Source of the DNA: a phage | Length of the DNA stretch: 64,000 nt | Direction: 5' to 3' (one strand) | Sequence record: PZ445489.1 | Part shown: positions 1,785 to 59,654 of the stretch, one piece after another | Layout: each line of letters begins with the position of its first letter | Position numbering within the stretch: the first letter of the stretch is position 1 | Notes under the pieces: model-generated | Databases searched by the model: none | Told to the model about the DNA's origin: nothing | What the model saw: the letters and a program-made list of their open reading frames with translations, nothing else | Translations under genes and position numbers: made by a program

Positions 1785-1877
1785 ATTTAATCTCCTCTTG
1801 GTAAGTAAGTATAACTTCAGTGTTTCTTCTCTAACTTACCAATATATTATATCAAAATATTGGGATAATAGCAAATA

Positions 1878-6236: not shown

Positions 6237-6265
6237 ATTATAGCAAGTATTTAAGCATTTAGCAA
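6237..6265 (-). promoter_or_regulatory. early-type sigma70 promoter (minus strand) between ligase subunit genes
   Basis: minus strand TTGCTA-17 nt-TATAAT followed by conserved ATTTATATAAATTGAT leader. Confidence 0.6.
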
Positions 6266-7596: not shown

Positions 7597-7625
7597 ATTA
7601 TATAACAAAACTGAGTTGAAAGCAA
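7597..7625 (-). promoter_or_regulatory. early-type sigma70 promoter (minus strand)
   Basis: minus strand TTGCTT-17-TATAAT. Confidence 0.55.
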
Positions 7626-8756: not shown

Positions 8757-8862
8757 ATTTTATATTTCCTTAATTAAGAATTAAACAGAATAGTTCTTTC
8801 AAACTATGAGAATATTATATCAAGAATTGTAGGATTAAGCAACTGAAATTTTTCGGTAATTG

Positions 8863-9805: not shown

Positions 9806-9874
9806 ATTTAAACTCCTCTCTCAAATTTATGAATCTATTATACAGAAAAATTTTCCTGAAAGCAAATAAAATTT

Positions 9875-13380: not shown

Positions 13381-13409
13381 ATTATATCAAGATTTTGGGC
13401 ATCATGCAA
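13381..13409 (-). promoter_or_regulatory. early-type sigma70 promoter (minus strand) upstream of long 5' leader of the 955-aa gene
   Basis: minus strand TTGCAT-17-TATAAT + ATTTATATTGAATTGAGAG leader. Confidence 0.55.
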
Positions 13410-16673: not shown

Positions 16674-16737
16674 AGCTTTCTCCTCTCAAATTTATAAATC
16701 TATTATATATAAATTTTTGGCTGAAAGCAAATAAAAT

Positions 16738-18647: not shown

Positions 18648-18756
18648 TATACTCTCCTTCTCTAACTAAGACTACTATTATAACTCATTCGAGGGCGGAT
18701 GTCAACAATATTTTACTATAAAGTTCTGTAACATGATCTGAGTCAAAAAATTTTAT

Positions 18757-18785
18757 TTGCCAATCTCTATTAAAAATTGTATAAT
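18757..18785 (+). promoter_or_regulatory. sigma70-type promoter (first of two tandem promoters upstream of phoH)
   Basis: TTGCCA-17-TATAAT. Confidence 0.55.
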
Positions 18786-18897: not shown

Positions 18898-18926
18898 TTG
18901 CTTTTTACTGTATATATTGGTATAAT
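18898..18926 (+). promoter_or_regulatory. sigma70-type promoter (second of tandem pair)
   Basis: TTGCTT-17-TATAAT. Confidence 0.55.
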
Positions 18927-19975: not shown

Positions 19976-20116
19976 GCTAAAAAGCTAGACTGGTAATATA
20001 CAGGCCTGGGTATGAAAATACTCGGGCCTTTTCTATCAGAAAATTTTATTTGCCTAATGACCAATAATAATGTAGAATATTCCTTAAATCCTGATAACTA
20101 TAAAAAGGAAAGCCAA

Positions 20117-22995: not shown

Positions 22996-23024
22996 TTGCT
23001 AATCGCTACCAGATTTGCTATAAT
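22996..23024 (+). promoter_or_regulatory. early-type promoter upstream of nrdB
   Basis: TTGCTA-17-TATAAT. Confidence 0.55.
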
Positions 23025-25611: not shown

Positions 25612-25640
25612 TTGCTTATTTAGTGAAATTTAAATATAAT
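25612..25640 (+). promoter_or_regulatory. early-type promoter
   Basis: AAATTTCATTTGCTT..17..TATAAT + ATATTTTATAAATTGGAGG. Confidence 0.55.
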
Positions 25641-26423: not shown

Positions 26424-26499
26424 TAAATAAATTAAAAATCTTCTTGCTTAAAGCCCTCTAATTTAGTATAATATTCGTATTGAAAGTGAGGAGGGCTTT

Positions 26500-26794: not shown

Positions 26795-26823
26795 TTGCTA
26801 AACGCTTCAAATTCTTGTATAAT
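26795..26823 (+). promoter_or_regulatory. early-type promoter
   Basis: TTGCTA-17-TATAAT. Confidence 0.55.
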
Positions 26824-28666: not shown

Positions 28667-28695
28667 TTGCTTCCGGCCCCAAAATTCTGTATAAT
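28667..28695 (+). promoter_or_regulatory. early-type promoter
   Basis: TTGCTT-17-TATAAT. Confidence 0.55.
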
Positions 28696-29993: not shown

Positions 29994-30022
29994 TTGCTAA
30001 TTTACTAAATTATATGTATAAT
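29994..30022 (+). promoter_or_regulatory. early-type promoter
   Basis: TTGCTA-17-TATAAT. Confidence 0.55.
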
Positions 30023-30375: not shown

Positions 30376-30825
30376 ATGAAGGCAGCTTTGCTTTTAGTAG
30401 CTGCCCTTACCTTCAGCTTTAGTAGTCAGGCATCGCACGATGCAAAAGAAATAGATTGCATTGCTAAAAATATCTATTTCGAAAGTCGTGGTGAGGGCAT
30501 AAAGGGAATGACGGCGATTGCACACGTTACTAAAAACCGTGTAAACTCCGGTAAATTCCCAGATTCCTACTGTAAAGTAGTATATCAGTCTAACCAGTTC
30601 TCTTGGGTATCTAAGAGACCAAAAGTTGATAAAACTGATGAGGCTTGGCAAACCGCTAAGAATTTAGCTAGAGTGATATACTACGTTGATTTACCACAAG
30701 ATCCTACACATGGAGCACTATACTTCCATAGTGGTAAAGATAAACCTTACTGGACAAAGAAGTTTAAGAAAACAACTAAGATTAAGGGACATACGTTTTA
30801 TAAACCTGTTGTCACTAAAACTTAA
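30376..30825 (+). CDS. secreted SleB/CwlJ-family cell wall hydrolase-like protein
   Basis: Signal peptide MKAALLLVAALTFSFSSQA; NIYFESRGE...AIAHVTKNR characteristic of SleB-type hydrolase domain. Confidence 0.6.
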   Translation: MKAALLLVAALTFSFSSQASHDAKEIDCIAKNIYFESRGEGIKGMTAIAHVTKNRVNSGKFPDSYCKVVYQSNQFSWVSKRPKVDKTDEAWQTAKNLARVIYYVDLPQDPTHGALYFHSGKDKPYWTKKFKKTTKIKGHTFYKPVVTKT

Positions 30826-30833
30826 AAATTTAC

Positions 30834-30862
30834 TTGCTTAAATACTTAAATTTCCGTATAAT
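30834..30862 (+). promoter_or_regulatory. early-type promoter
   Basis: TTGCTT-17-TATAAT. Confidence 0.55.
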
Positions 30863-30893
30863 ACTTCCATAAATTAATGAGAGGAAGCGAAAT

Positions 30894-31064
30894 ATGAAAT
30901 CAGTTGTAATTATTGGTGTTAACACTCGCGGTATTCGTACTACGAAAATTGTTAAAACTTCTAACGTTGCTGAGATCACTACGAACCCTAAAAAGTTTGA
31001 TTTCGCCAAAGTCTCAGCAGTTATGACAGAACAATCTTTTAACCAAGCGTTAGGAATGAAATAA
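30894..31064 (+). CDS. small hypothetical protein (56 aa, not in ORF track)
   Basis: ATG with GAGAGGAAG RBS directly after promoter. Confidence 0.35.
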   Translation: MKSVVIIGVNTRGIRTTKIVKTSNVAEITTNPKKFDFAKVSAVMTEQSFNQALGMK

Positions 31065-31507
31065 TGGAAGAGAATATTTTAGATGTTTTGCGTAGAGCTT
31101 TGCAGGATTCTAAGTTTAATGGTTCTGATAAAGAAGTCGCTAAAAGCTATCAGACCATAATCGGGGATCTTCAGCGTATTAATAAAGATTTCATCACTTC
31201 TGAACAATTTGTGTCTTATCTCAAAGCTCAACTAAAAAGCATTAACCAGATGAAAGCTAAACTTCATGGTCAAGATCTTGATAGTTATAGCTTGCAGTCC
31301 GCTCAGTATGAGTACATTCTAAATAAGTGGTTGCAGGAGTATCTGCCCCCTCAGTTATCTGATACTGAGATTCGTAAATACTTTGCAGAATTAGTTAAGC
31401 TAAACCCTGGAATTACAAAAGGTATGCTGATGAAAGCGATTAAGGAAGAATTTCCTGGGCGTTATGATGGTGGTACTGCTGCTCAGATTGCTGGTGAATT
31501 TAATTAA
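31064..31507 (+). CDS. GatB/YqeY-domain-like protein
   Basis: C-terminal ...GMLMKAIKEEFPGRYDGGTAAQIAGE resembles YqeY domain. Confidence 0.45.
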   Translation: MEENILDVLRRALQDSKFNGSDKEVAKSYQTIIGDLQRINKDFITSEQFVSYLKAQLKSINQMKAKLHGQDLDSYSLQSAQYEYILNKWLQEYLPPQLSDTEIRKYFAELVKLNPGITKGMLMKAIKEEFPGRYDGGTAAQIAGEFN

Positions 31508-31515
31508 AAATTTAT

Positions 31516-31544
31516 TTGCTAAATGCTTATAAATTCTGTATAAT
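31516..31544 (+). promoter_or_regulatory. early-type promoter driving ORF-free region
   Basis: TTGCTA-17-TATAAT. Confidence 0.55.
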
Positions 31545-32356
31545 ATATTCATAAATTAGAGAACAGCGAGCCGATTACGCTGAACTTGTCTTAATGTAAG
31601 ATGCGTCGAGCACTAAGATTCGTTGAATAGAGTCGGTAGGTTAGTTGTAAAACTAGTACACAGGGGGCGGCAATCCCGGTTAGTGGCTAGAACGTGTAAA
31701 ATGAGGCGTCTGAAACCTCTCCCCTAAACTCTTCTCTAATTTATAAATAGTGGGGTGTGGAAATCACTTATGTAGTAACACTGCCGTCCTAGTATAATTG
31801 GTATTATCAAGCCGTAACTGGTGGAAGATATAGATTCGAATCCTACGGTCGGTAAGAACTGGATAACTGATGCTTTTAACGTAAAAGCTTCCGAGGTTAG
31901 TTGCGCACTGCCTAAACCACGCGGTAGTTGGTTCCAGGCTAACCAACCAGTCTGCTGAATAGTTTTATTACGATTTAACTATGTCCAGGCTAAAGAAGAA
32001 CTTTAGAAGGTATTCTAGGATAGTGAAGTTTTTTCTCCATATCGGAGTAGTTTTTCAAGCTATCCACAAAGTGGGAAATGCTGACATGAGAGATGTCACT
32101 AATGGTGCACAATAGCACAGGTAATTCGCGATAACTCCTGTTGAGTAGCAGCAAAAGGCGGGAAGTCATGACCCCAAGCCTAACCGAGTCCTCAATATAC
32201 CGCAGGACATAACCACTAAGTCACCCTGACTTAAACTGGAAAATAATAGACGTTACTGTATTTTGTCTTGAAATACTTAATGAGTGAGACTTATGACTCT
32301 CCCGGTATCGTCTGTATTTTTAAGAGTTTTTACGAGAGTTCTTAAAAATATTTAAA

Positions 32357-32431
32357 CGGGGTGTAGTCTAAGGGAGAGGCAGGAGTCTTCTAAATTCCTT
32401 TATGCAGGTTCGAATCCTGTCACCTCGGCCA
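32357..32431 (+). tRNA. tRNA-Arg (anticodon UCU)
   Basis: Acceptor CGGGGTG/CACCTCG, anticodon stem GGAGU/AUUCC loop CUUCUAA, T-arm GCAGG-TTCGAAT-CCTGT, encoded CCA. Confidence 0.7.
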
Positions 32432-32465
32432 ATTTTATTAACTGTAACTAAAACAAAGGAAATAT

Positions 32466-33413
32466 ATGTTTAATACTAAAAATATGAAAGAACTGACTTC
32501 TGAGCAGAAAGTAATTCGTACTATTAAACGTTGGGGTATTGGTGCTGTAGTTGGTTTAGCAGGCTTGATTCTAGCCTTTAATTCATATACTATTGTTTCT
32601 GATGGTACGGTTAAAACCCAAACATTTCTGGGTAAAGTAGATCCTAACCCAGTATTACCAGGTTTCCATCTTGTAAACCCATTTGCATCTTTCGACACTT
32701 TTAGTACAAAAGATATTGCTGTAAAATTAGATAAACTTCAGGTTCCTAGCCAGGATAAGTTTAAATCCACTGTTGACCTGACTGTTATGTTGCAGTTTGA
32801 TGGTTCTAAGGCACCAATTAACCGTATTAACGCAGGTACTCAGGATCAAGCGTTAGACAAATATGTAACTGAAAAATTACTGTCTACTATTCGTGAGTTT
32901 GGTAAGTCTGTACCTAAAGCACAAGATTTGTTTGATGCTAAAATTCAGGCTCAATTGCAAACTGCAATTCAACAGGAAGTTGAAGAGTATGCACGCCCAT
33001 ATGGTTACACAGTTAAGCAGGTATTCCTTCAGGATATTACTTTGCCACCGGTAATCATGGAACAGGTACAGAATACCAAAGTTCGTGAAGAACAGGTTAA
33101 TGCTGCTAAAGCTGAATTAGCTCGTGTTGAACAGGAAGCACAGCAAAAAGTTAAACAAGCAGAAGCAGATCGTGAAGCTCGCAACAACCAAGCTATCGCT
33201 AATGAACGTGACGCAGATGCTAAACTGTACGCAGCTAAGAAAGAAGCTGAAGCTAACGCCGCACTGCAACGTACCATTACTCCTGAGATGATTCGTTGGA
33301 AACAACTGGAAGTCGAAATGATTCGTGCTCAGAAATATCAAGGTGGTGTACCACAGACTGTGGTAGGTACTGGCTACGATGGTCAAATGATCATGGATAT
33401 GCGTAATAAATAA
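32466..33413 (+). CDS. SPFH/band-7 (prohibitin/HflK-like) membrane protein
   Basis: N-terminal TM segment, SPFH-like core, C-terminal Ala/Glu/Gln-rich coiled coil. Confidence 0.6.
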   Translation: MFNTKNMKELTSEQKVIRTIKRWGIGAVVGLAGLILAFNSYTIVSDGTVKTQTFLGKVDPNPVLPGFHLVNPFASFDTFSTKDIAVKLDKLQVPSQDKFKSTVDLTVMLQFDGSKAPINRINAGTQDQALDKYVTEKLLSTIREFGKSVPKAQDLFDAKIQAQLQTAIQQEVEEYARPYGYTVKQVFLQDITLPPVIMEQVQNTKVREEQVNAAKAELARVEQEAQQKVKQAEADREARNNQAIANERDADAKLYAAKKEAEANAALQRTITPEMIRWKQLEVEMIRAQKYQGGVPQTVVGTGYDGQMIMDMRNK

Positions 33414-33437
33414 TATCCGCATGTAACATCTGAAGTA

Positions 33438-33476
33438 AGCCCTGCGTTCCCTGGAGAGCGCAGGGCTTTTCTTTTA
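33438..33476 (+). terminator. rho-independent terminator
   Basis: AGCCCTGCG...CGCAGGGCT hairpin + TTTTCTTTT. Confidence 0.6.
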
Positions 33477-33486
33477 TCTTAAATAC

Positions 33487-33526
33487 AGAAAAGCCCCTAA
33501 GTCTTTCGACTAGGGGCTTTATTGTT
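33487..33526. terminator. bidirectional rho-independent terminator
   Basis: AAAAGCCCCTAAGTCTTTCGACTAGGGGCTTTATTGTTT: GC stem flanked by A-run and T-run. Confidence 0.6.
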
Positions 33527-33737
33527 TGGTTCTTCAGAACCACACTCTCGGTGTACAGCAACCACCCATACGGGAGGCCAATCTTGACTGAAAATCTACT
33601 CTAGGGGGCAGGATAAGAGTAGGCTTAAAGGCAAAGGGATTGAACGCCGGTATTTGTGTAAACATTGCTGGAGAGCAACAACGTGCTACAGGCATTGGGC
33701 AGCACGAAACAGGTTTTCTGCAACACATAATTTCTCC

Positions 33738-34154
33738 TTAGGAGTTATTACCACCATTTTGAGCTTTTGCAACTTGGCTTTGGCAGAAGCTATTAAACTT
33801 ACCCATAAGTGATACAAGCTGCTTCCCATCCTCTGTCTTTGCGAAGTCTTCGAAAAGGGCTAGTACTGCCTGTCCTTCCGCAGAAACCTGCGGTTGTTGG
33901 GTTTGCTGCTGAACTTGCTGCTGCGGCATCTGTTGTTGCATTTGTTGAGGCATTTGCGACTGCCCGCTCATTTGCTGCATCATTTGCATAGGACTCACAC
34001 TTCCAGGGTTTTGCTGGAGTTGTTGTTGCATCTGTTGCGCTTCTGCTAAACGCTGTTGCAATTGTTGTAAGTAGGGGTTATCCAGACCCGGAATGGGCTG
34101 CTGGGAGCCCATACTTTGATTAAGTCCGTTATTTACAAAACCATATTTACTCAT
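33738..34154 (-). CDS. glutamine-rich low-complexity protein (138 aa)
   Basis: ORF; long Q/M/P runs. Confidence 0.5.
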   Translation of the reverse strand: MSKYGFVNNGLNQSMGSQQPIPGLDNPYLQQLQQRLAEAQQMQQQLQQNPGSVSPMQMMQQMSGQSQMPQQMQQQMPQQQVQQQTQQPQVSAEGQAVLALFEDFAKTEDGKQLVSLMGKFNSFCQSQVAKAQNGGNNS

Positions 34155-34175
34155 AATGGGCTCCTCCCCTTAATA

Positions 34176-35158
34176 TTAAGCCGGCAGTTTAGCCTGCAGA
34201 CCAGCCAGAGTCTGAGTGATAGCACCAAGACTTACAGCGATTTGATTAATTACCTGACCGTTAGCACCGTTACCCGCAGCGATTGCTTCACGTAGGCGAC
34301 ATGCATCTAACTCATCCTGAATACGAGCAGTAGTTACACCAGCGATAGCAGTCTGAAGTTCACAGCAACATTCAGCGATCTGACGTTCCAGAGAGTTCTG
34401 GTTAGCACACATCTGAGCCTGAACAGCGGCAAACTGGTTATTAGTTTGTAAAGTCTGCTGGAAAGCGATCTGTGCAGAATCAAACTTATCTTGTGCACGA
34501 GCTATCTGATTAGCTGCGAAAGATTGATCAATCTGGCGAGAAAGATCGAACTGACCCTGAATAACGTTGCGAGTTTCCTGACAGATCTGATTAGACAGAT
34601 TAGCACCTGTACCATAGATCGTAGTTAGTACAGACTGAGTATCACGGCTCTGGTTTTGGGATGTCTGGCTAAACCCATTGTTAACTGCGCTTAAAACAGC
34701 TCCAGTACCCTGGTTAGCTTCTGTACGAGTAGTGTTAATAGCTGCTAGAATACTAGCGGTATCTTGGTTCTGAAGTACTGCATCAACTGCGGTACCATCA
34801 CCAACTACACCACGTCCACCGAATCCACCGAAACCACCGAATCCGCCTGTTAATAGAGCACCGATTAGGATAGCTCCGAATAGTCCCATACCTTCACCAC
34901 CGAAAGCACCTGCGTTTGCTGGGTAACCACCCAGTAGGCCAGGGAAGCCACTAGTAAATACGTTTACTGGTTCTTGCATTTTATGTTTTCCATATTTATG
35001 ACAATGTTCATCGTCATCTTCTTCATCATCGTGTTCACGATGTTTTTCTTCGTAGGCTCTGACCTTCTCCCACTTTTTCTTATCTGATTCCTCGTGACGG
35101 TGCAGTTCTGCTGCAACGCTAGCGACGGTCTCAGGACTCTTAGCTACTTCTTCTGTCA
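34176..35158 (-). CDS. glycine-zipper membrane protein with His/acidic N-terminus and Q/N/A-rich C-terminal region
   Basis: AGGAGGTG RBS then ATG at 35158-35156; GLFGAILIGALLTGGFGGFGGFGG segment. Confidence 0.5.
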
Positions 35159-35365
35159 TTTTTGACACCTCCTAGTATATAGAAAATGTGTGTCTCTTTG
35201 ATCACTCATCCATAACATATACTTTACACTACCCCAGCGAAAATGTCAAGGGGTCTTTAAAAATTGCCCCTGAATTTTTAGTGGGGTCACAAATTTTGGT
35301 CCTCACCACTTATCTGCTATCCTTAAGTGCCCTATGATTTTCCTCTAAAAAGTTAAAAAATTTGA

Positions 35366-35394
35366 TTGCTTGAATGCTAAATTCTCTGTATAAT
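35366..35394 (+). promoter_or_regulatory. early-type promoter
   Basis: AAAAATTTGATTGCTT-17-TATAAT + ATATCTATAAATTTGAAAGAGG. Confidence 0.55.
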
Positions 35395-35424
35395 ATATCT
35401 ATAAATTTGAAAGAGGAACCAAAT

Positions 35425-35943
35425 ATGAATGTTGATGAGCTAACACAGCACCTCTTATCTAGAGGATTTGATACAGATAAATATCATTGCTGGTTAAGTC
35501 CGGAAGGATGGCTAACAGTCCCGTTGTATGACTTCTCTGGGATGTTGAGGGGCTATCAAACTTATAATCCTTCTGCTCCAAAAGGTCATGGTAAGTGCCC
35601 CTTTGAAGCTAAATACTTTACTTATTCTACTACCCAGTGTGTATGGGGACTAGAAACTCTCAATGGAGATGAAAAAGTAGTATTGATTGCTGAATCTGTA
35701 TTTAAGGCAGTTGCGTTACATAATGCTGGTTATCCAGCCCTAGCAATGTTGGGTTCTTCTCCAGGAAAAGCGTTATTAAAGCAACTGAAATTACTACCTT
35801 TTAAATTGGTAGCTGTCGGAGATAATGATCCTGCGGGTGAAAAATTTGCTAGAAAATTAAACGGCTTTGTTTCTCCCGTAGATGTGGATGAGATGTCTAC
35901 CGAAAACTTGAAAAATTTTCTTGCTATGAAGCTAAATTTCTAA
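35425..35943 (+). CDS. standalone Toprim-domain protein
   Basis: VVLIAESVFKAV (Toprim Glu) and LVAVGDNDPAGEKFA (DxD) motifs; ATG 35425 with GAAAGAGGAA RBS. Confidence 0.55.
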   Translation: MNVDELTQHLLSRGFDTDKYHCWLSPEGWLTVPLYDFSGMLRGYQTYNPSAPKGHGKCPFEAKYFTYSTTQCVWGLETLNGDEKVVLIAESVFKAVALHNAGYPALAMLGSSPGKALLKQLKLLPFKLVAVGDNDPAGEKFARKLNGFVSPVDVDEMSTENLKNFLAMKLNF

Positions 35944-35964
35944 TATAATATATCTTATAAATTC

Positions 35965-36053
35965 GGAAGAATAGCATAACGGTATTGCAGCAGATTGCTA
36001 ATCTGTCGGTTTGAAATATAGCCTTGTGGGTTCGATTCCCGCTTCTTCCGCCA
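35965..36053 (+). tRNA. tRNA-Ser (GCU), type II
   Basis: Acceptor GGAAGAA/TTCTTCC, anticodon loop TTGCTAA, long variable arm, T-arm GTGGG-TTCGATT-CCCGC, CCA. Confidence 0.75.
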
Positions 36054-36059
36054 AATTCT

Positions 36060-36137
36060 GGTTCTCAAGCTCATATGGTATGAGCACCCGGCTCATAACC
36101 GGAAGGTACGTAGGTTCGAATCCTCGGGGAGCCACCA
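36060..36137 (+). tRNA. tRNA-like, anticodon CAU (Met/Ile2), imperfect T stem
   Basis: Acceptor GGTTCTC/GGGAGCC (2 GU), D stem GCTC/GAGC, anticodon loop CTCATAA, T loop TTCGAAT with 2 mismatches in stem. Confidence 0.45.
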
Positions 36138-36156
36138 AATTAAATAGAGGTCACAA

Positions 36157-36345
36157 ATGGATCTATATATAGTTTATGTTGTGTTTATCCAAGATAGAGA
36201 ATACCCGGATGAATATAAAAAAGGATATAGGTTAGCCAGAGCTACCTCTGAAGCCCAAGCTATGGATAAAGTGGCAGATTATATGATTACGGTAGAAAAC
36301 ATACACTATATCGACTACCTTGAAGCCTCAAAAGTAATTGACTAA
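36157..36345 (+). CDS. hypothetical protein (62 aa)
   Basis: ORF. Confidence 0.4.
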   Translation: MDLYIVYVVFIQDREYPDEYKKGYRLARATSEAQAMDKVADYMITVENIHYIDYLEASKVID

Positions 36346-36354
36346 GGAGACTAT

Positions 36355-36540
36355 ATGTCTAAGTTTCAAGAACTCAAGCAAGAGCTAGAAGAATGTGCCT
36401 GCCCTGAGTGTAGAGGAATTGGTGAAAGTTCTGATGCAGAAGCAGGAGATACTTTTTGCAATATCTGGGTTTGCCCAAATTGCAATGGTACAGGTATTAA
36501 TCCTAACTGTGGTATTTCCCTAGATATTGAACGAGGATAA
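36355..36540 (+). CDS. small zinc-ribbon protein (61 aa)
   Basis: CACPEC...CPNCNG. Confidence 0.45.
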   Translation: MSKFQELKQELEECACPECRGIGESSDAEAGDTFCNIWVCPNCNGTGINPNCGISLDIERG

Positions 36541-36641
36541 TACCTGTAAAACTAAAAGATTATTATATTGGTTGGTTTGTGGGACTAGTAGTAGGATTTT
36601 CACTAGGCTATAATATGTATCAACTAATAAACTGATTACAC

Positions 36642-36718
36642 GGGGGTGTAATCGAATTGGCATAGGTACTGGACTTAAAATTCAGGTTTTGTGGGTTCGA
36701 ATCCCACCACCCCTACCA
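36642..36718 (+). tRNA. tRNA-like, anticodon UAA (Leu-type anticodon on short-variable-arm scaffold), atypical D arm
   Basis: Acceptor GGGGGTG/CACCCCT, anticodon stem CTGGA/TTCAG loop CTTAAAA, T-arm GTGGG-TTCGAAT-CCCAC, disc A, CCA. Confidence 0.5.
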
Positions 36719-36893
36719 AACTAAGGAAATAAGATGTATAGACATCCACCTCCGCCAACACGTCGTTCTAGAGAAGTTATCCTCATGGAATTGACTAAAA
36801 ACTTCAAGGCAACTCTTGAAGATAGAGATCTAGGTACAGATGAAGACGTTGATTTCATTTGTAAACTATTAAAAATGAAGCTGGAGAAACATC

Positions 36894-37100
36894 ATGGCTA
36901 ACCGTGAAATTACTATGCAACGAATCATGACTAAAGGCATGATAGCCGAGGCAGGTATTGAACAAGAAGTAAAAGGCTATTACGAACAGATTAAGACTAT
37001 TATAGACTCTGCTAAAAACACCGGAGAAAAAGAACACGGTGCAGCAATTATGGCTATAACTCTTATTAGCCTAGACTTAGCTGAAGAATCTGGAGTTTAG
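36894..37100 (+). CDS. hypothetical protein (68 aa)
   Basis: ORF. Confidence 0.4.
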   Translation: MANREITMQRIMTKGMIAEAGIEQEVKGYYEQIKTIIDSAKNTGEKEHGAAIMAITLISLDLAEESGV

Positions 37101-37130
37101 CTCCTCCAAACAGAATTTTTAAAAATGTAC

Positions 37131-37160
37131 TTGCCTTTTGCTTTAAATTTCTGATATAAT
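37131..37160 (+). promoter_or_regulatory. early-type promoter
   Basis: TTGCCT-18-TATAAT. Confidence 0.5.
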
Positions 37161-37190
37161 AGTTGTATAAATTGATGAAGGAGTTAACGA

Positions 37191-37466
37191 ATGCAAAATC
37201 GTGTTGTAGCAACTGGTATTGAAAGTGCAATCTGCAAATCCTGGGAAGACTGGGAAGGTGAGATTGAGTGGCTCTATCTCTATAACGTAGATCTTCTACC
37301 GGAGGTTAAAGCTAAATGTATTGAAGCTGGCATGGCTCCAGATGCAAAAGCTGATATTGATATTTCAATGTCTGAACTTAAAGGTCGTGTAATTACTGTT
37401 AGTGATGAGGGCGAAGAAGTTTTCGAACTTCCGTTCTCCTTAACTGTCACTCCTAAGTTCGACTAA
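37191..37466 (+). CDS. hypothetical protein (91 aa)
   Basis: ORF with promoter and GAAGGAG RBS. Confidence 0.45.
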   Translation: MQNRVVATGIESAICKSWEDWEGEIEWLYLYNVDLLPEVKAKCIEAGMAPDAKADIDISMSELKGRVITVSDEGEEVFELPFSLTVTPKFD

Positions 37467-37503
37467 CTAATACAGCACTGAGCAAGTTCTTTAAAATTTG
37501 ACT

Positions 37504-37531
37504 TGCTCAGTGCCTTAAAACTTGGTATAAT
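37504..37531 (+). promoter_or_regulatory. early-type promoter driving tRNA sub-cluster
   Basis: TTGCTC-16-TATAAT. Confidence 0.5.
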
Positions 37532-37596
37532 ATTTACCTAATTTGGAAACATATTTAAAAGTGTTTAAATGAGAATTTTTGAATACTTCTAAATAT

Positions 37597-37687
37597 GTTG
37601 GATTAGTATCGTAGAGGTAGCGAAGCAGACTGTAAATCTGCCGACTCGGAAGGGTCTCGGGTGGTTCGACTCCATCATCCAACACCA
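37597..37687 (+). tRNA. tRNA-Tyr (GUA), type II
   Basis: Acceptor GTTGGAT/ATCCAAC, anticodon stem GCAGA/TCTGC loop CTGTAAA, long variable arm, T-arm GGTGG-TTCGACT-CCATC, CCA. Confidence 0.75.
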
Positions 37688-37694
37688 AATTTAA

Positions 37695-37771
37695 GTCCTG
37701 TTAGACAAACTGGTAAAGTCACTACCCTTTCAAGGTAGGATTTGCGGGTTCGATCCCCGCACAGGACGCCA
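37695..37771 (+). tRNA. tRNA-Glu (UUC)
   Basis: Acceptor GTCCTGT/ACAGGAC, anticodon stem CTACC/GGTAG loop CTTTCAA, T-arm GCGGG-TTCGATC-CCCGC, CCA. Confidence 0.75.
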
Positions 37772-37779
37772 ATTTCTGC

Positions 37780-37856
37780 ATTCCTAGAGTGTTACTGGAC
37801 AGCATGTCGGTCTCCAAAACCGTACGGTCTAGGTTCGAGTCCTAGTAGGTTTGCCA
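37780..37856 (+). tRNA. tRNA-like, anticodon CCA (Trp), acceptor stem with mismatches
   Basis: Anticodon loop CTCCAAA, T-arm CTAGG-TTCGAGT-CCTAG, 3' GCCA; acceptor pairing imperfect. Confidence 0.5.
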
Positions 37857-37862
37857 AAATTT

Positions 37863-37937
37863 GCACCTTTAGCTGAGATGGATTAGCGCTTGCCTGAAGA
37901 GCTTGAGAGGTTCGTTCGATACGAACAGGGTGCACCA
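37863..37937 (+). tRNA. tRNA-like, anticodon uncertain (possibly GAA, Phe)
   Basis: Acceptor GCACCTT/AGGGTGC, T-arm GTTCG-TTCGATA-CGAAC, CCA; anticodon stem poorly paired. Confidence 0.45.
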
Positions 37938-37954
37938 AATTGAAGGAGCTGCTG

Positions 37955-38227
37955 ATGCATCCTGAAAACTTCTTTATTTACTGCGCTGATAAGTCGCTAA
38001 AACGTAGAATTAACAAAGTCTACCATTATCGTGCTAGTCAACAGCCTTATGTATATGCTTTTGACGGTGATCACATTCCATTAGAACAATTATCTTGTGA
38101 TTACATGATATTAAAGAACTTTGACGAGACGAAGATCTCAAGCGTTCACAATCGGCAGAATCCATTAACGTGGAAATATAAGAAGAAAAAGAAAGGCATC
38201 AAATTCTTAAAAAATATAGTTGCTTAG
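37955..38227 (+). CDS. hypothetical protein (90 aa)
   Basis: ATG 37955 after AAGGAG. Confidence 0.45.
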   Translation: MHPENFFIYCADKSLKRRINKVYHYRASQQPYVYAFDGDHIPLEQLSCDYMILKNFDETKISSVHNRQNPLTWKYKKKKKGIKFLKNIVA

Positions 38228-38248
38228 TTTCCAAAAGTTCTGTATAAT
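38220..38248 (+). promoter_or_regulatory. early-type promoter
   Basis: TTGCTT-17-TATAAT. Confidence 0.55.
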
Positions 38249-38296
38249 AATTACATAAATTGAACTGGAGAAGCAACATGACAGAACAAGATAAAC

Positions 38297-38372
38297 CGAC
38301 CGTTGGCTGAATGGCTTAGGCGAAGGATTGCAAATCCTTTTTATGTGAGTTCAAATCTCATGCGGTCGTCCA
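38297..38372 (+). tRNA. tRNA-Cys (GCA)
   Basis: Acceptor CGACCGT/GCGGTCG, anticodon stem AAGGA/TCCTT loop TTGCAAA, T-arm GTGAG-TTCAAAT-CTCAT, CCA. Confidence 0.7.
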
Positions 38373-38379
38373 AATTTTA

Positions 38380-38462
38380 GGGTCGTTAGCCAAGCGGTTT
38401 GGCGGTGGACTGTTAATCCATGTCGAAAGACAACGTAGGTTCGAATCCTACACGGCCCGCCA
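38380..38462 (+). tRNA. tRNA-Asn (GUU) with extended variable region
   Basis: Acceptor GGGTCGT/ACGGCCC, anticodon loop CTGTTAA, T-arm GTAGG-TTCGAAT-CCTAC, CCA. Confidence 0.6.
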
Positions 38463-38564
38463 AATTCTGTGTAGAGTTAAGTAAACCGGTAGCCAACCAG
38501 CTATCATTGCTGACATCGAATTCAGCCACAGATACCATTTTCATTAATAACTGAGGAAACAAGC

Positions 38565-38750
38565 ATGTCCAAGAATGTAATTGCGCAGCTAGAAGTTCAT
38601 CGTGATAGCACTATCAACAATATTGAAGTTGAAAAGAAATACATCGAAGAACTTAAACATGATATACTAGTGAGTCTCAACCGTCTTAATGTACGAAAAG
38701 AGTTTCTTAAAGAACTTAATGCAGCTATTGAAAAACTCAAAGCTGAGTAA
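38565..38750 (+). CDS. hypothetical protein (61 aa)
   Basis: ORF with GAGGAAACAAGC RBS. Confidence 0.4.
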   Translation: MSKNVIAQLEVHRDSTINNIEVEKKYIEELKHDILVSLNRLNVRKEFLKELNAAIEKLKAE

Positions 38751-38759
38751 ATGAATTAT

Positions 38760-38836
38760 GCGACCGGGGCTGGCTTGGTAATGGTACTCCCCTGTCACGG
38801 GAGAGAATGTGGGTTCAAATCCCATCGGTCGCGCCA
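38760..38836 (+). tRNA. tRNA-Asp (GUC)
   Basis: Acceptor GCGACCG/CGGTCGC, anticodon stem CTCCC/GGGAG loop CTGTCAC, T-arm GTGGG-TTCAAAT-CCCAT, CCA. Confidence 0.8.
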
Positions 38837-38862
38837 AATTAATTTAGTATGAGAAATATGCT

Positions 38863-39210
38863 ATGATTAATGCTAAAGAAGAATTGTTACTTGCCCTAAA
38901 GAATACTAATTCTGAAGTTAAGTGTATTAAGATAGAATTCGGTTATTATGGAGACAAAGAAGTTTGGGTATTACCCGTAGGTTATACAGAAAAAGATATT
39001 GAAGATTTTCTAAATAATCTAGACTTTAAATATGATTCTGGTTTCGGTGGACAATTGCTTTATGGTAACGTATGGTTTACTGATGGAACTTGGTTAGAAC
39101 GTGGTGAATATGATGGTTCTGAATGGTGGGAATATAAGACTACACCAGCAATTCCAGAGGAATGCCGAACAATTAATGGTGAAGTAGATCGTACTTTACT
39201 ATTAAATTAA
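38863..39210 (+). CDS. hypothetical protein (115 aa)
   Basis: ORF. Confidence 0.5.
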   Translation: MINAKEELLLALKNTNSEVKCIKIEFGYYGDKEVWVLPVGYTEKDIEDFLNNLDFKYDSGFGGQLLYGNVWFTDGTWLERGEYDGSEWWEYKTTPAIPEECRTINGEVDRTLLLN

Positions 39211-39450
39211 CAAAATCTCAGTGCAGAACACGGAGCTAGCAATTCGGAAGTGCTGACTCATGATAAGCTGCCTATGTACTTGCGAAGCGGTCGTGTCCAA
39301 GACTCGGACTCTTGCACTGAAAACAATCAAACATTCTAGCGTGGTTGATGGGGAAACCAGCTTGGCTAGGGCAGAAGCTCGTTCGATTCGAGTGAAAGAA
39401 TGGTTCTCGTAAGTCCGCACAAGTGATAGCAGGTTCGAGTCCTGTCTAGA

Positions 39451-39642
39451 ATGACATATTCTGGAGGTTTTGTGAATTACAAAGAATTAGATCTTTTAGC
39501 AAATAAATTCACAGAGCTATCTGATAACGTTGTATCAAAGGACTCCAACATAGATAATTTTATTACTGAATATCGTGATGGTATAATCTCTAAACAAGAG
39601 TTGTTAGATAAAACGTATAAATATTTAAAGGGGTTCAGCTAA
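39451..39642 (+). CDS. hypothetical protein (63 aa)
   Basis: ORF. Confidence 0.4.
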   Translation: MTYSGGFVNYKELDLLANKFTELSDNVVSKDSNIDNFITEYRDGIISKQELLDKTYKYLKGFS

Positions 39643-39953
39643 ACGGTTAAGCACTGTCCTACTTCGGACAGAGGGAGTAACACGTAGTCTCCCAAACTCC
39701 CCCAAATTTAGATTTCTGCTTCCTAGAGAACGGACTTCTGAATAAACAAGGCGATGAAGTTTCCGGCCGGTTCTAGTCGCTAAAGTCCCTCTAACGGGGC
39801 GTAAGTAAATGAAAGTTTACTTATTATGTAGGTTCCGATAGATCGGCGGGTCTATTCTGGCATTTAAGAGAGGTCTCGCAAACTTCTTTGTCAGCCGTGG
39901 GGTTGGTAGCCTCCAGGTGGCCTACACAATAAGTAAATTTATTAAAAATTCAT

Positions 39954-39982
39954 TTGCTATTCTGCTATATTATCTGTATAAT
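39954..39982 (+). promoter_or_regulatory. early-type promoter
   Basis: TTGCTA-17-TATAAT. Confidence 0.55.
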
Positions 39983-40014
39983 ATATTTTATAAAGTGAAG
40001 AGAAGGAAAGCAAA

Positions 40015-40173: not shown

Positions 40174-40177
40174 TATT

Positions 40178-40255
40178 CTCCGTGTAGCTCAGTTTGGCCA
40201 GAGCGTTTCGTTTGGGGCGATAGGGTCGGGGGTTCAAATCCTCCCACGGAGACCA
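40178..40255 (+). tRNA. tRNA-Pro (UGG)
   Basis: Acceptor CTCCGTG/CACGGAG, D stem GCTC/GAGC, anticodon loop TTTGGGG, T-arm GGGGG-TTCAAAT-CCTCC, CCA. Confidence 0.7.
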
Positions 40256-40703: not shown

Positions 40704-41072
40704 TTGCAAATGCAATTATCAAACAAGATTCAAGGTTATTTCGGTCATGTGACAATGGAGTTCGCATTGCAGCATGGCTGGGATATGGAAAAAGATCTAT
40801 CGGAATTTTATGAGTCTCATAAAGAGATTGATCTTAGTTCTGTCTATTTGGGATTATCTACTGGTCAAGAACTTACAGAATATGATGTATTCAAGGCAAG
40901 TCAAGGTGAGATAACACCTAGTTTTGCCGAGTTCTGGCTAGGAATTACCTTGAAGGATAATGCACCAGATGAAGGTGTGGTTATGCAAAGTATGCACTCT
41001 GGAAGCTCTGATTACCTTTACGTTCGTGATGTAAAGGAACTACAGGAAATCGCTAAAAATGTACTTGCTTAA
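40704..41072 (+). CDS. hypothetical protein (122 aa)
   Basis: ORF with RBS AAGGAATTG. Confidence 0.5.
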   Translation: MQMQLSNKIQGYFGHVTMEFALQHGWDMEKDLSEFYESHKEIDLSSVYLGLSTGQELTEYDVFKASQGEITPSFAEFWLGITLKDNAPDEGVVMQSMHSGSSDYLYVRDVKELQEIAKNVLA

Positions 41073-41093
41073 TGCTTAATTTCTTGTTATAAT
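41065..41093 (+). promoter_or_regulatory. early-type promoter
   Basis: TTGCTT-17-TATAAT. Confidence 0.55.
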
Positions 41094-43838: not shown

Positions 43839-43863
43839 AATTTAAAAATTCATTTGCCTTCTC

Positions 43864-43892
43864 TCTTATTTCTTGTTATAATATCTATATAA
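43864..43892 (+). promoter_or_regulatory. early-type promoter
   Basis: TTGCCT-17-TATAAT. Confidence 0.55.
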
Positions 43893-45992: not shown

Positions 45993-46021
45993 TTGCTAAA
46001 CCTCTCTTTTCTTGCTATAAT
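45993..46021 (+). promoter_or_regulatory. early-type promoter
   Basis: TTGCTA-17-TATAAT. Confidence 0.55.
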
Positions 46022-48117: not shown

Positions 48118-48146
48118 TTGCTTAGATGCCCAAACTTTTGTATAAT
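48118..48146 (+). promoter_or_regulatory. early-type promoter
   Basis: TTGCTT-17-TATAAT. Confidence 0.55.
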
Positions 48147-52661: not shown

Positions 52662-52690
52662 TTGACTTTTAGCCCTAGTTATTATATAAT
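52662..52690 (+). promoter_or_regulatory. sigma70-type promoter
   Basis: TTGACT-17-TATAAT. Confidence 0.55.
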
Positions 52691-53479: not shown

Positions 53480-53508
53480 TTGCTTTTTGCTAAAAATTTT
53501 GGTATAAT
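53480..53508 (+). promoter_or_regulatory. early-type promoter
   Basis: TTGCTT-17-TATAAT. Confidence 0.55.
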
Positions 53509-56046: not shown

Positions 56047-56075
56047 TTGCTAAAATGCTTAAGTTTCTGTATAAT
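56047..56075 (+). promoter_or_regulatory. early-type promoter
   Basis: TTGCTA-17-TATAAT. Confidence 0.55.
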
Positions 56076-56554: not shown

Positions 56555-56583
56555 TTGCTTTAAGCCTTAAAATTCTGTATAAT
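56555..56583 (+). promoter_or_regulatory. early-type promoter
   Basis: TTGCTT-17-TATAAT. Confidence 0.55.
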
Positions 56584-59207: not shown

Positions 59208-59654
59208 ATGAGAGAGAAAGTAAATGAATTATTAATCGAGGAAGCTAACAACTTTCCAATAAATAGGTTCATTAAATCGGATGGATCTATTAATAGAACT
59301 AAGATTAAGCAGCTACACCCCGACTTTCAACAAGAAGCACTAAACCTTATATTTATCAAGAAAGCCGTTGCAGCTCACGGGGCTTTCTTCGGATATGAGC
59401 GTGTAAATTATAAAACAATGCAGCAGCAAGTCGAGATTTATTGTCCAGATCATGATGGTTATTACTGGCAGACTGCTAGATCTCATTTAGAAGGGCATGG
59501 TTGTCGACTGTGTGCACACAAGGTTGTGCAGCGCGTCACGGATTATGGAACTTATACCGTACCAGCATGTTACCATAAATTTGTGATTGACGATAATCAT
59601 ATAGTTTGGTATAATAAGTTTTCAAAGCTAAGAATGGAGATAAATAGTGAGTAG
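59208..59654 (+). CDS. hypothetical Cys/His-containing protein
   Basis: ATG 59208; CPDHDG...HGCRLCAHK. Confidence 0.45.
   Translation: MREKVNELLIEEANNFPINRFIKSDGSINRTKIKQLHPDFQQEALNLIFIKKAVAAHGAFFGYERVNYKTMQQQVEIYCPDHDGYYWQTARSHLEGHGCRLCAHKVVQRVTDYGTYTVPACYHKFVIDDNHIVWYNKFSKLRMEINSE

What the first reader, a model, noticed from the sequence alone, without database searches (positions are those of the whole stretch)
35366..35394. About 30 copies of a nearly invariant early promoter module on both strands
The module AAAAATT(C/T)ATTTGCT(A/T)A - 17 nt - TATAAT - ATAT(A/T)TTCATAAATTGATGAGAGG recurs upstream of most small ORFs and tRNA blocks on the plus strand, and also on the minus strand upstream of ligB, ligA-proximal genes and others. 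The conserved A-tract UP element, fixed 17-nt spacer and conserved downstream ATAAATTGA box imply extremely strong, uniformly regulated host-RNAP promoters; the downstream box may be a shared regulatory or translation-enhancer element. Representative -35..-10 coordinates: 22996-23024, 25612-25640, 26795-26823, 28667-28695, 29994-30022, 30834-30862, 31516-31544, 38220-38248, 39954-39982, 41065-41093, 43864-43892, 45993-46021, 48118-48146, 53480-53508, 56047-56075, 56555-56583; minus strand 6237-6265, 7597-7625, 13381-13409.
Basis: partly seen in the sequence, partly recalled or inferred. Interest (0 to 1): 0.4.

Follow-up and report, generated by a model that had tools for sequence, protein, structure and literature searches.

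The report
Phage T5 early promoters, already known
The repeated module is the well-known set of very strong early promoters of a T5-like phage, read by the host's RNA polymerase. The "downstream box" is the first few transcribed bases, so the finding is correct but ordinary.

Summary
TTGCTW-N17-TATAAT occurs 30 times against about 2 expected by chance. A matrix built from these sites finds 34 in total: 8 on the minus strand at 1846-18677 and 26 on the plus strand at 18757-59587. All face the same way as their genes.

The window is the early region of a T5-like phage (Tequintavirus), about 92-96% identical to T5. Of the 34 sites, 33 are orthologous to promoters already annotated in the T5 GenBank record. 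These include the classic PN25, PN26, PK28a, PH207, PD/E33, P16-17, P15a-c, P14a-b, P13a-b, P11 and PF30.

The same consensus has been published for T5-like phage AKFV33: TTGCTw, a 17-18 bp spacer, TATAATA, AAAAATT at -43 and TAAATT at +1, in 32 promoters.

The ATAAATT box is +1 to +7 of the transcript. It is the initial transcribed sequence, which for N25 is known to speed promoter escape. It also precedes tRNA and non-coding RNA genes and is absent from promoterless genes, so it is not a general translation enhancer.

In T5 the module marks the early gene class only. Verdict: already known, low interest.

The parts
1846..1874 (-). Early promoter core (-35 to -10). Predicted +1 at 1839. Upstream of the DNA polymerase gene.
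   Evidence: Matrix score 53.6. Orthologue of the T5 promoter at 70987-71061, before pol. Early transcripts from a promoter called Ppol were seen by primer extension in T5 infection; that this is the same promoter is inferred from the name.
6237..6265 (-). Early promoter core. Predicted +1 at 6230, ATG at +25. Upstream of ligB.
   Evidence: Score 66.9. 100% identical to T5 PK28a.
7597..7625 (-). Early promoter core. Predicted +1 at 7590. Upstream of a 69-aa ORF and then ligA.
   Evidence: Score 56.4. Orthologue of the T5 promoter at 65284-65358, before ligA.
8814..8842 (-). Early promoter core. Predicted +1 at 8807. Upstream of D3. The +1 box is degenerate (ATAGTTT).
   Evidence: Score 52.7. 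Orthologue of T5 PN26.
9837..9865 (-). Early promoter core. Predicted +1 at 9830, ATG at +26. Upstream of D2.
   Evidence: Score 64.2. Orthologue of T5 PN25. The sequence is identical from the -35 hexamer through +20 (ATAAATTTGAGAGAGGAGTT).
13381..13409 (-). Early promoter core with a TTGCAT -35. Predicted +1 at 13374. Long leader before the gene for the replication-origin-binding protein.
   Evidence: Score 54.9. Orthologue of the T5 promoter at 58999-59073.
16702..16730 (-). Early promoter core. Predicted +1 at 16695, ATG at +23.
   Evidence: Score 55.8. Orthologue of the T5 promoter at 55708-55782.
18677..18705 (-). Variant promoter for nrdD: TTGACA-17-TATAAT, without the ATAAATT box.
   Evidence: Score 13.7. 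Orthologue of the T5 nrdD promoter at 53884-53958.
18757..18785 (+). Variant promoter: A-tract, TTGCCA-17-TATAAT, and a GC-rich start region with no +1 box. It lies in tandem with the site at 18898.
   Evidence: Seed match. Orthologue of the T5 promoter at 53776-53850.
18898..18926 (+). Early promoter core. Predicted +1 at 18933 (GTAAGTT). Upstream of phoH.
   Evidence: Score 56.2. Orthologue of the T5 promoter at 53638-53712.
20050..20078 (+). Weak candidate (TTGCCT-17-TAGAAT) upstream of nrdA.
   Evidence: Score 20.8. This is the only one of the 34 sites with no promoter annotated at the orthologous T5 position.
22996..23024 (+). Early promoter core. Predicted +1 at 23031, ATG at +26. Upstream of nrdB.
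   Evidence: Score 48.3. Orthologue of the T5 promoter at 50061-50135.
25612..25640 (+). Early promoter core. The box is shifted by 1 nt. ATG at +20.
   Evidence: Score 39.6. Orthologue of the T5 promoter at 46937-47011.
26444..26472 (+). Early promoter core with a degenerate +1 box (ATTGAAA). ATG at +22.
   Evidence: Score 42.3. Orthologue of the T5 promoter at 46337-46411.
26795..26823 (+). Early promoter core. The box is shifted by 1 nt. ATG at +33.
   Evidence: Score 54.7. Orthologue of T5 PH207.
28667..28695 (+). Early promoter core. Predicted +1 at 28702, ATG at +35.
   Evidence: Score 59.9. Orthologue of the T5 promoter at 44393-44467.
29994..30022 (+). Early promoter core. Predicted +1 at 30029 (TTAAATT), ATG at +25.
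   Evidence: Score 62.5. Orthologue of the T5 promoter at 43067-43141.
30834..30862 (+). Early promoter core. Predicted +1 at 30869, ATG at +26.
   Evidence: Score 63.6. Orthologue of T5 PD/E33.
31516..31544 (+). Early promoter core. Predicted +1 at 31551. No ORF follows. It drives the RNAX-like non-coding region and tRNA-Arg (32357).
   Evidence: Score 64.9. Orthologue of T5 P16-17. No ORF downstream.
35366..35394 (+). The site named in the finding. Early promoter core. Predicted +1 at 35401, ATG at +25.
   Evidence: Score 62.0. Orthologue of T5 P15a. A product from P15A was barely visible by primer extension, with early timing.
35921..35949 (+). Early promoter core. The start A is at 35957 and tRNA-Ser(gct) begins at 35965, so the leader is only the 8-nt box AUAAAUUC.
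   Evidence: Score 44.3. Orthologue of T5 P15b. tRNA coordinates, distance.
37131..37160 (+). Early promoter core with an 18-nt spacer (TTGCCT-18-TATAAT). Predicted +1 at 37167, ATG at +25.
   Evidence: Score 26.0 in the 17-nt register. Orthologue of T5 P15c.
37503..37531 (+). Early promoter core (TTGCTC). Drives the tRNA block Tyr-Glu-Trp-Phe, which starts 59 nt downstream.
   Evidence: Score 54.0. Orthologue of T5 P14a.
38220..38248 (+). Early promoter core. Predicted +1 at 38255. tRNA-Cys begins 42 nt downstream.
   Evidence: Score 55.2. Orthologue of T5 P14b.
39954..39982 (+). Early promoter core. The box is shifted by 1 nt (ATAAAGT). A small ORF follows, then tRNA-Pro and tRNA-Met.
   Evidence: Score 50.9. 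Orthologue of T5 P13a.
41065..41093 (+). Early promoter core. Predicted +1 at 41100. No ORF start follows the promoter. Drives non-coding RNA and the tRNA-Ala/Leu block.
   Evidence: Score 62.8. Orthologue of T5 P13b.
43854..43882 (+). Early promoter core (TTGCCT). Predicted +1 at 43889, ATG at +25.
   Evidence: Score 59.4. Orthologue of T5 P11.
45993..46021 (+). Early promoter core. Predicted +1 at 46028, ATG at +25.
   Evidence: Score 60.0. Orthologue of the T5 promoter at 26722-26796.
48118..48146 (+). Early promoter core. Predicted +1 at 48153 (ATAGATT), ATG at +26.
   Evidence: Score 58.8. Orthologue of the T5 promoter at 24443-24517.
52662..52690 (+). Early promoter with a TTGACT -35. 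Predicted +1 at 52697 (ATAAATT), ATG at +28.
   Evidence: Score 35.8. Orthologue of the T5 promoter at 19368-19442.
53480..53508 (+). Early promoter core. Predicted +1 at 53515. Longer leader, with ATG at +52.
   Evidence: Score 57.7. Orthologue of the T5 promoter at 18550-18624.
56047..56075 (+). Early promoter core. Predicted +1 at 56082, ATG at +25.
   Evidence: Score 60.9. Orthologue of T5 PF30.
56555..56583 (+). Early promoter core and the best match to the matrix. Predicted +1 at 56590, ATG at +27.
   Evidence: Score 68.5. Orthologue of the T5 promoter at 16245-16319.
59587..59615 (+). Variant promoter (TTGACG-17-TATAAT) without the +1 box. It is the last promoter before the boundary with the terminal repeat.
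   Evidence: Score 14.1. Orthologue of the T5 promoter at 13212-13286.

Best explanation
These are the early-class sigma-70 promoters of a T5-like phage (Tequintavirus). There are about 34, roughly one every 1.7 kb. Each heads a short operon of early genes or a block of tRNA or small-RNA genes, and all are read by unmodified host RNA polymerase.

Proposed roles of each part of the module:
- The A-tract at -45..-38 acts as an UP-like contact for the alpha C-terminal domains.
- TTGCTW, an optimal 17-bp AT-rich spacer and a perfect TATAAT give very fast and very tight binding.
- The AT-rich discriminator (ATATTY) melts easily.
- Transcription starts at the A of ATAAATT. This AT- and purine-rich initial transcribed sequence lets the polymerase escape quickly from an otherwise escape-limited, over-stable open complex.
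- The rest of the roughly 25-nt leader is a strong Shine-Dalgarno sequence (GAGAGG/AGGAG) placed 7-9 nt before the ATG.

Shown here: the motif itself, its statistics, its orientation, its orthology to the annotated T5 promoters, and its restriction to the early class.
Taken from the literature on N25: the start site, the UP elements, and the effect of the initial transcribed sequence on escape.
Inferred: that all 34 copies behave like N25.
For: Motif and statistics:
- 30 seed matches against 2 expected.
- Flanking positions not used for selection are conserved.
- The matrix finds 34 sites and shuffles never come close.

Orientation: the 34 sites divide by strand at about 18.7 kb, minus-strand sites at 1846-18677 and plus-strand sites at 18757-59587, matching the divergent gene orientation of the T5 early region.

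Identity of the phage and the sites:
- The window is a T5-like phage.
- 33 of 34 sites map onto promoters annotated in T5 AY543070, 16 of them carrying historical names.
- A second T5 record labels the orthologous sites in the stretch examined (62.0-67.5 kb) 'putative early promoter T5P33-37'.

Start site and function:
- The N25 start site is the A of CATAAAT.
- For N25 the literature reports a near-consensus -35/17 bp/-10 arrangement, a canonical UP element, a spacer UP element and a 6-bp discriminator. Its native initial transcribed sequence gives roughly 10-fold more productive RNA than an 'anti' version, and an escape half-life of 3 min against about 45 min.

Prior description: the same consensus, including AAAAATT at -43 and TAAATT at +1, is published for 32 promoters of T5-like phage AKFV33.

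Class specificity in T5: 28 matrix hits in 8-74 kb but only 2 in 74-121.75 kb. One is P31A in the D region; the other sits 60 nt before the lytic conversion lipoprotein gene (lpp) at 110.4 kb, beyond the virion genes. There are none in the terminal repeat.

The architecture persists in Klebsiella, Proteus and Vibrio members of the Demerecviridae.
Against: No transcript data exist for this particular phage. In T5 only 11 of 19 in-vitro-mapped promoters gave primer-extension products in vivo, so some copies may be weak or silent in infection.

Five or six sites lack the +1 box or deviate in the -35 (18677, 18757, 20050, 59587, 26444, 22996). They may belong to a different kinetic subclass.

The escape role of the initial transcribed sequence has been measured only for N25.
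Confidence: 0.93

Rival explanations
1. The ATAAATT(G/T/A)A box mainly acts at the RNA level. As an AU-rich 5' leader it would enhance ribosome loading (an S1-type enhancer) or stabilise the mRNA.
For: The box lies directly 5' of a strong Shine-Dalgarno sequence. The ATG sits at a narrow distance, +20 to +35 with a mode of +25. Promoter-proximal translation-initiation regions are more AU-rich at -25..-13 (0.81 against 0.67, p = 7e-6) and slightly less structured (-3.0 against -4.3 kcal/mol, p = 0.045) than those of internal genes.
Against: The box is kept in promoters with no ORF behind them: 31516, 41065 and 35921, where an 8-nt leader runs straight into tRNA-Ser. ATAAATT occurs 22 times away from predicted +1 positions against about 28 expected, so there is no enrichment there, and all 8 copies of ATAAATTGA are at predicted start sites. 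The box is locked at 6-7 nt from the -10 hexamer. For N25 the transcriptional effect of this sequence has been measured directly.
Confidence: 0.12
2. The class-specific discriminator and +1 sequence (ATATTY-ATAAATT) is a recognition tag. A phage factor such as the RNA-polymerase-binding protein gpT5.026 or the D5 DNA-binding protein would use it to switch all early promoters down together late in infection.
For: Klimuk et al. report that all known T5 early promoters share ATATT in the discriminator. They also report that gpT5.026 weakens polymerase binding to the -5/+2 segment, and that early transcripts are over-abundant in the gene 026 mutant. In T5 the module marks early genes only. The +1 box drifts between genera, reaching A[CT]AAA[AG]T in a Vibrio phage, which would be compatible with co-evolution with a phage factor.
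Against: [quoted passage not shown] No sequence-specific operator protein is known. AT-rich discriminators and start regions are sufficiently explained by easy melting and escape. This would add to promoter function, not replace it.
Confidence: 0.2
3. The copies are dispersed repeats whose main significance is recombinational. They would act as linkers for swapping gene cassettes between T5-like phages, like the promoter-stem-loop cassettes of T4-type phages.
For: 8 of 54 homology breakpoints against T5 fall inside modules, against 2.7 expected for random positions, and seven of them lie at 0..+16. One T5 record annotates parts of the module as 'repeat b' and 'repeat c'.
Against: With the proper control the enrichment disappears. 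Breakpoints hit promoter-proximal gene starts no more often than promoterless gene starts:
- T5: 4/26 against 19/86
- OSYSP: 2/19 against 5/54
- DT57C: 4/22 against 11/76
- S131: 0/21 against 3/61
. Breakpoints simply fall at gene boundaries.
Confidence: 0.04

Closest known systems
Bacteriophage T5 early promoters (PN25, PN26, PK28a, PH207, PD/E33, P11-P16; Gentz & Bujard 1985, as cited in PMC7472727; annotated in GenBank AY543070 and AY587007)
   Same: They are positional orthologues at 79-100% identity. They share the -35 TTGCTW, the 17-bp spacer, the TATAAT, the -43 A-tract and the +1 ATAAATT. The PN25 core is identical from the -35 hexamer to +20.
   Different: There are only point differences and a few local gene-content differences around them. 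Examples are the 69-aa ORF between the promoter and ligA, and the loss of T5.069/T5.070 after P14b.
The 32 'T5-like' promoters of phage AKFV33 (Niu et al. 2012, PMC3326045)
   Same: The published consensus is the same one: TTGCTw, 17-18 bp, TATAATA, AAAAATT around -43 and TAAATT at +1. The number of promoters per genome is also about the same.
   Different: A different isolate. That paper gave only the logo and made no analysis of the +1 box.
UP-element-dependent strong sigma-70 promoters (rrnB P1, lambda PR), compared from my own knowledge and from PMC12464699
   Same: An A/T-rich tract upstream of -35 contacted by the alpha C-terminal domains, with near-consensus hexamers and a 17-bp spacer.
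   Different: The T5 modules have an AT-rich discriminator and a conserved initial transcribed sequence, whereas rRNA promoters have a GC-rich discriminator. They are limited by escape, not by open-complex lifetime.
T4-type early promoters and promoter-stem-loop (PeSL) cassettes (from my own knowledge)
   Same: Many near-identical strong early promoters for the host polymerase, dispersed through a region of small early genes.
   Different: No associated stem-loop cassette was found here, and there is no evidence that the copies mediate shuffling. T5 is not known to ADP-ribosylate the polymerase.

Membership tests
T5-type early sigma-70 promoters | -35 hexamer TTGCTW (TTGC at minimum) | tested here: met
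   TTGCT[AT] in 25 of 34 sites and TTGC in 31 of 34. The published consensus is TTGCTw.
T5-type early sigma-70 promoters | 17-bp (rarely 18-bp) spacer and a perfect TATAAT(A) at -10 | tested here: met
   The spacer is 17 nt in 33 of 34 sites and 18 nt in one. TATAAT is present in 33 of 34, and A at -6 in 27 of 29.
T5-type early sigma-70 promoters | A-rich block around -43 (AAAAATT) | tested here: met
   AAAA at -45..-42, allowing one mismatch, in 32 of 34 sites. It matches the published -43 element.
T5-type early sigma-70 promoters | AT-rich discriminator (ATATT) and TAAATT at the start site | tested here: met
   ATATT within one mismatch in 15 of 34 sites, and at least 5 of 6 A/T in 24 of 34. 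ATAAATT is exact in 20 of 34 and within one mismatch in 23 of 34, at 6-7 nt from the -10. The literature gives the same features. About a third of the sites are degenerate here.
T5-type early sigma-70 promoters | Position orthologous to a mapped or annotated T5 promoter, co-oriented with early genes | tested here: met
   33 of 34 sites overlap annotated T5 promoters, 16 of them named.
T5-type early sigma-70 promoters | Restricted to the early temporal class | tested here: met
   In T5 there are 28 matrix hits in the early region and 2 elsewhere (P31A and the promoter before lpp). There are none in the terminal repeat or upstream of virion genes. This was tested on T5, because the window itself holds only early DNA.
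T5-type early sigma-70 promoters | Initiation by E. coli sigma-70 holoenzyme at the A of ATAAATT, with early kinetics in vivo | not testable with these tools
   Known for N25 and a few other T5 promoters. No transcript data exist for this phage.
UP element (alpha-CTD binding site) | A/T-rich tract at about -60 to -38 matching the UP consensus and increasing transcription through alpha-CTD contact | tested here: inconclusive
   The sequence is conserved only from about -47 to -37, which resembles the proximal subsite (my own knowledge). N25 is stated to have a canonical UP element with about 66% homology to consensus. Binding cannot be tested here.
Extended -10 (TGn) promoters | TG at -15/-14, one base upstream of TATAAT | tested here: not met
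   The frequent TG lies at -14/-13, directly abutting TATAAT. Of the sites in the scanned 26000-45900 stretch, only 43854 and 37131 are flagged as having TG in the extended -10 position.

The most novel reading that the evidence does not exclude
The conserved discriminator and start-site sequence (ATATTY-ATAAATT) could be more than an escape-optimised start. It could be the tag by which a phage-encoded factor (gpT5.026, D5 or an unknown partner) recognises polymerase bound at early promoters and shuts the whole early class down together. This would explain why the sequence is class-specific in T5 and drifts between genera of the Demerecviridae.
Probability: 0.15. Interest if true: 0.4.

Novelty: already known. 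Interest (0 to 1): 0.07.

Why it matters
The finding matters little as a discovery. These promoters were mapped in the late 1970s and 1980s. PN25 is a standard model promoter and the basis of commercial T5-promoter expression vectors (my own knowledge). The consensus, including the -43 and +1 elements, has been published for T5-like genomes.

What the result provides is a clean promoter and operon map for annotating this particular phage. It also gives two small confirmations. The +1 box behaves as a transcriptional element, because it also precedes tRNA genes. And the module marks the early class only.

Tried and rejected
1. My first pattern used an 18-nt spacer by mistake and gave only chance-level hits. 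One search corrected it.

2. The generic sigma-70 scanner is uninformative here: 41 sites against 48.7 expected. TTGCTT matches TTGACA at only 3 of 6 positions, so many true sites are missed.

3. Recombination-linker idea. There is an apparent excess of homology breakpoints in the modules. It vanishes when promoter-proximal gene starts are compared with promoterless gene starts in four genomes. Rejected.

4. A second promoter class, TTGACATTTTC (T5 PK28b and P12). Only 2 exact copies are present, which is not above chance as a motif. They are noted but not counted with the module.

5. A loose inverted symmetry between -42..-36 (AATTYAT) and the +1 box (ATAAATT). It is exact in only 1 of 34 sites and 6 of 7 in 11. 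Most likely an effect of base composition; not pursued.

6. The original paper by Gentz & Bujard (1985) is not held in the library. It is cited only through the reference list of PMC7472727 and from my own knowledge.

7. No transcriptome or TSS-mapping paper for T5 was found in the library.

Full report
**Observation.** The named site at 35366-35394 reads TTGCTT, a 17-nt spacer, then TATAAT. AAAAAATTTGA lies upstream. Downstream come ATATCT, ATAAATTTGAAAGAGG and an ATG. Searching TTGCTW-N17-TATAAT with at most one mismatch returns 30 matches on both strands. Dinucleotide-preserving shuffles give 2.06 +/- 1.46, and none of 100 reaches 30. My first attempt used an 18-nt spacer by mistake and gave chance-level hits. 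One of the 30 matches (39985, minus strand) is a spurious overlap of the 39954 site.

Aligning the other 29 shows strong conservation at positions that played no part in the selection:
- AAAA at -45..-42, T at -40 and A at -37
- an AAAATTT-like stretch at -21..-15
- A at -6 and T at -3
- T-A-A-A-T-T at +2..+7
- a purine-rich GAGAGG-like stretch at +11..+17

A weight matrix covering -51..+18 recovers 34 sites. Most score 40-68 bits, against a maximum of 6.9 in 20 shuffles. Eight sites lie on the minus strand between 1846 and 18677, and 26 on the plus strand between 18757 and 59587.

Across the 34 sites, the -10 is a perfect TATAAT in 33, the spacer is 17 nt in 33, the -35 begins TTGC in 31, the A-tract is present in 32, and ATAAATT is exact in 20. 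'Most small ORFs' is an overstatement, because about 26 of about 112 predicted gene starts are promoter-proximal. Every tRNA block, however, does lie downstream of a module.

**What the window is.** The DNA is 94-98% identical to many T5-like phages. The region around 9837 is 96-98% identical to T5 and its relatives. In the T5 records the match falls on a feature annotated as a promoter. A full comparison shows the window is collinear with T5 AY543070 from about 72.9 kb down to about 8.5 kb, in reverse orientation. It therefore holds essentially the entire early region, plus the inner end of the left terminal repeat.

**Identity of the modules.** The T5 record AY543070 annotates 37 promoters in this interval, many under the names given when they were mapped in vitro. 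Mapping each window site onto T5 shows that 33 of the 34 overlap an annotated T5 promoter. Among them:
- 9837(-) = PN25
- 8814(-) = PN26
- 6237(-) = PK28a
- 26795 = PH207
- 30834 = PD/E33
- 31516 = P16-17
- 35366, 35921 and 37131 = P15a, P15b and P15c
- 37503 and 38220 = P14a and P14b
- 39954 and 41065 = P13a and P13b
- 43854 = P11
- 56047 = PF30

The only site without a T5 annotation is the weak candidate at 20050 (TAGAAT). The PN25 orthologue is identical to T5 from the -35 hexamer through +20. The second T5 record (AY587007) calls the same sites 'putative early promoter T5P33-37'. It also marks part of the module as dispersed 'repeat b' and 'repeat c'.

The genome paper for T5-like phage AKFV33 reports 32 promoters with the consensus TTGCTw, 17-18 bp, TATAATA, plus AAAAATT around -43 and TAAATT at +1. 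That is the same observation as the present finding.

**What the downstream box is.** Klimuk et al. give TATAATAGATTCAT as positions -12 to +2 of the N25 non-template strand. This places +1 on the A of ATAAATT, so the box is the initial transcribed sequence and the GAGAGG that follows is the ribosome-binding site.

Hsu and Han summarise the published dissection of N25:
- a near-consensus -35, 17-bp spacer and -10
- a canonical UP element
- an additional AT-rich 'spacer UP element' centred at -19
- a 6-bp discriminator
- a native AT-rich initial transcribed sequence evolved for fast escape from an escape-limited promoter

Replacing +3..+20 with an 'anti' sequence cuts productive RNA about 10-fold. 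It also lengthens the escape half-life from 3 to about 45 minutes.

I tested the translational alternative on the sequence itself.
- The box sits at a fixed 6 nt (7 nt in three cases) after the -10.
- It is retained in promoters with no ORF start behind them (31516, 41065). At 35921 the start A is at 35957 and tRNA-Ser begins at 35965, so the whole leader is AUAAAUUC.
- ATAAATT occurs 42 times on both strands. Twenty of these are at predicted start sites and 22 elsewhere, against about 28 expected by chance. All eight copies of ATAAATTGA are at start sites.

The box therefore belongs to the promoter and not to gene starts in general. Promoter-proximal ribosome-binding regions are somewhat more AU-rich and slightly less structured than internal ones. 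A secondary benefit for translation therefore cannot be excluded.

**Class specificity and spread.** Scanning the rest of T5 with the matrix built from the window gives 28 hits in 8-74 kb and only two in 74-121.75 kb. One is P31A in the D region. The other is at 110369, 60 nt before the lytic conversion lipoprotein gene (lpp), beyond the virion genes. From my own knowledge, that gene is expressed early. There are no hits in the terminal repeat, which carries the pre-early genes, or upstream of virion genes. Klimuk et al. likewise state that early and late T5 promoters differ mainly in the discriminator, and that all early ones carry ATATT.

The architecture is kept in distant Demerecviridae, with 12-16 matrix hits per 40 kb of early region: Klebsiella phage GlastoCabaret (Sugarlandvirus), Proteus phage RP7 (Novosibvirus) and Vibrio phage D308. 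The +1 box drifts to A[CT]AAA[AG]T in the Vibrio phage.

**Rival ideas.** An apparent excess of homology breakpoints inside the modules (8 of 54 against 2.7 expected) suggested that the repeats might serve as recombination linkers. Compared with the proper control, in four genomes, promoter-proximal gene starts are hit no more often than promoterless gene starts. Breakpoints simply lie at gene boundaries, and the idea is not supported.

A role for the discriminator and start sequence as a class tag for a phage regulator remains possible. Klimuk et al. already suggested it for gpT5.026. It would add to promoter function and not replace it.

**Verdict.** The secondary speculation about the box is better replaced by 'initial transcribed sequence plus ribosome-binding site'. 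Everything essential is already in the literature and in GenBank annotation, so the novelty is 'already known' and interest is low.

Noticed in passing
window 35921-36053 (+): The promoter orthologous to T5 P15b starts transcription only 8 nt before tRNA-Ser(gct). The start A is at 35957 and the tRNA begins at 35965. The 5' leader that RNase P must remove is therefore just the conserved AUAAAUUC box.
   Followed up: partly
window 38255-38462 (+): After the P14b orthologue the leader keeps a Shine-Dalgarno sequence and an ATG (38278), but tRNA-Cys starts at 38297. The T5 ORFs T5.070 and T5.069 are missing here: 143 nt in the window stand against 762 nt in T5.
   Followed up: partly
window 6348-6358 (-) and 35239-35249 (-): Two promoters of a different type share TTGACATTTTC at -35 and lack the A-tract/ATAAATT module. 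They are orthologous to T5 PK28b and P12. P12 diverges from P15a and drives the short minus-strand gene block at 33.7-35.2 kb. As a motif it is not above chance in the window.
   Followed up: partly
window 7373-7582 (-): A 69-aa ORF with no Pfam match lies between the ligA promoter and ligA. T5 has nothing there, but Salmonella phage S131 annotates a small ORF at the same place.
   Followed up: partly
window 22507-22989 (+) and 61681-62037 (+): A 160-aa HNH_3 endonuclease lies between nrdA and nrdB. At the DNA level it is not homologous to T5 hegH, which occupies the same position. A 118-aa T5orf172/MUG113 (GIY-YIG-like) protein lies in a 1.3-kb segment absent from T5. These are probably homing endonucleases that differ between isolates.
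   Followed up: partly
window 62293-64000: This stretch is homologous to T5 9.3-10.6 kb and 8.5-9.1 kb. That is the inner end of the left terminal repeat, which in T5 carries the injection stop signal and a major nick. No early-type module occurs beyond 59587.
   Followed up: no
window 33437-33468: A strong 13-bp stem terminator lies between convergent genes, at the position of the 'efficient bidirectional terminator' annotated in T5 at 39678-39720.
   Followed up: no
L010 (T5 AY543070) 110369-110397 (+): A full early-type module sits inside the T5 late region, just upstream of the lytic conversion lipoprotein gene (lpp/llp). It is one of only two such modules outside 8-74 kb.
   Followed up: partly
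L005 (Vibrio phage D308) early region: The same promoter architecture is present: A-rich -43, TTGCxx, 17 bp, a perfect TATAAT and an AT-rich discriminator. The start box has drifted to ACAAAAT/ATAAAGT.
   Followed up: partly
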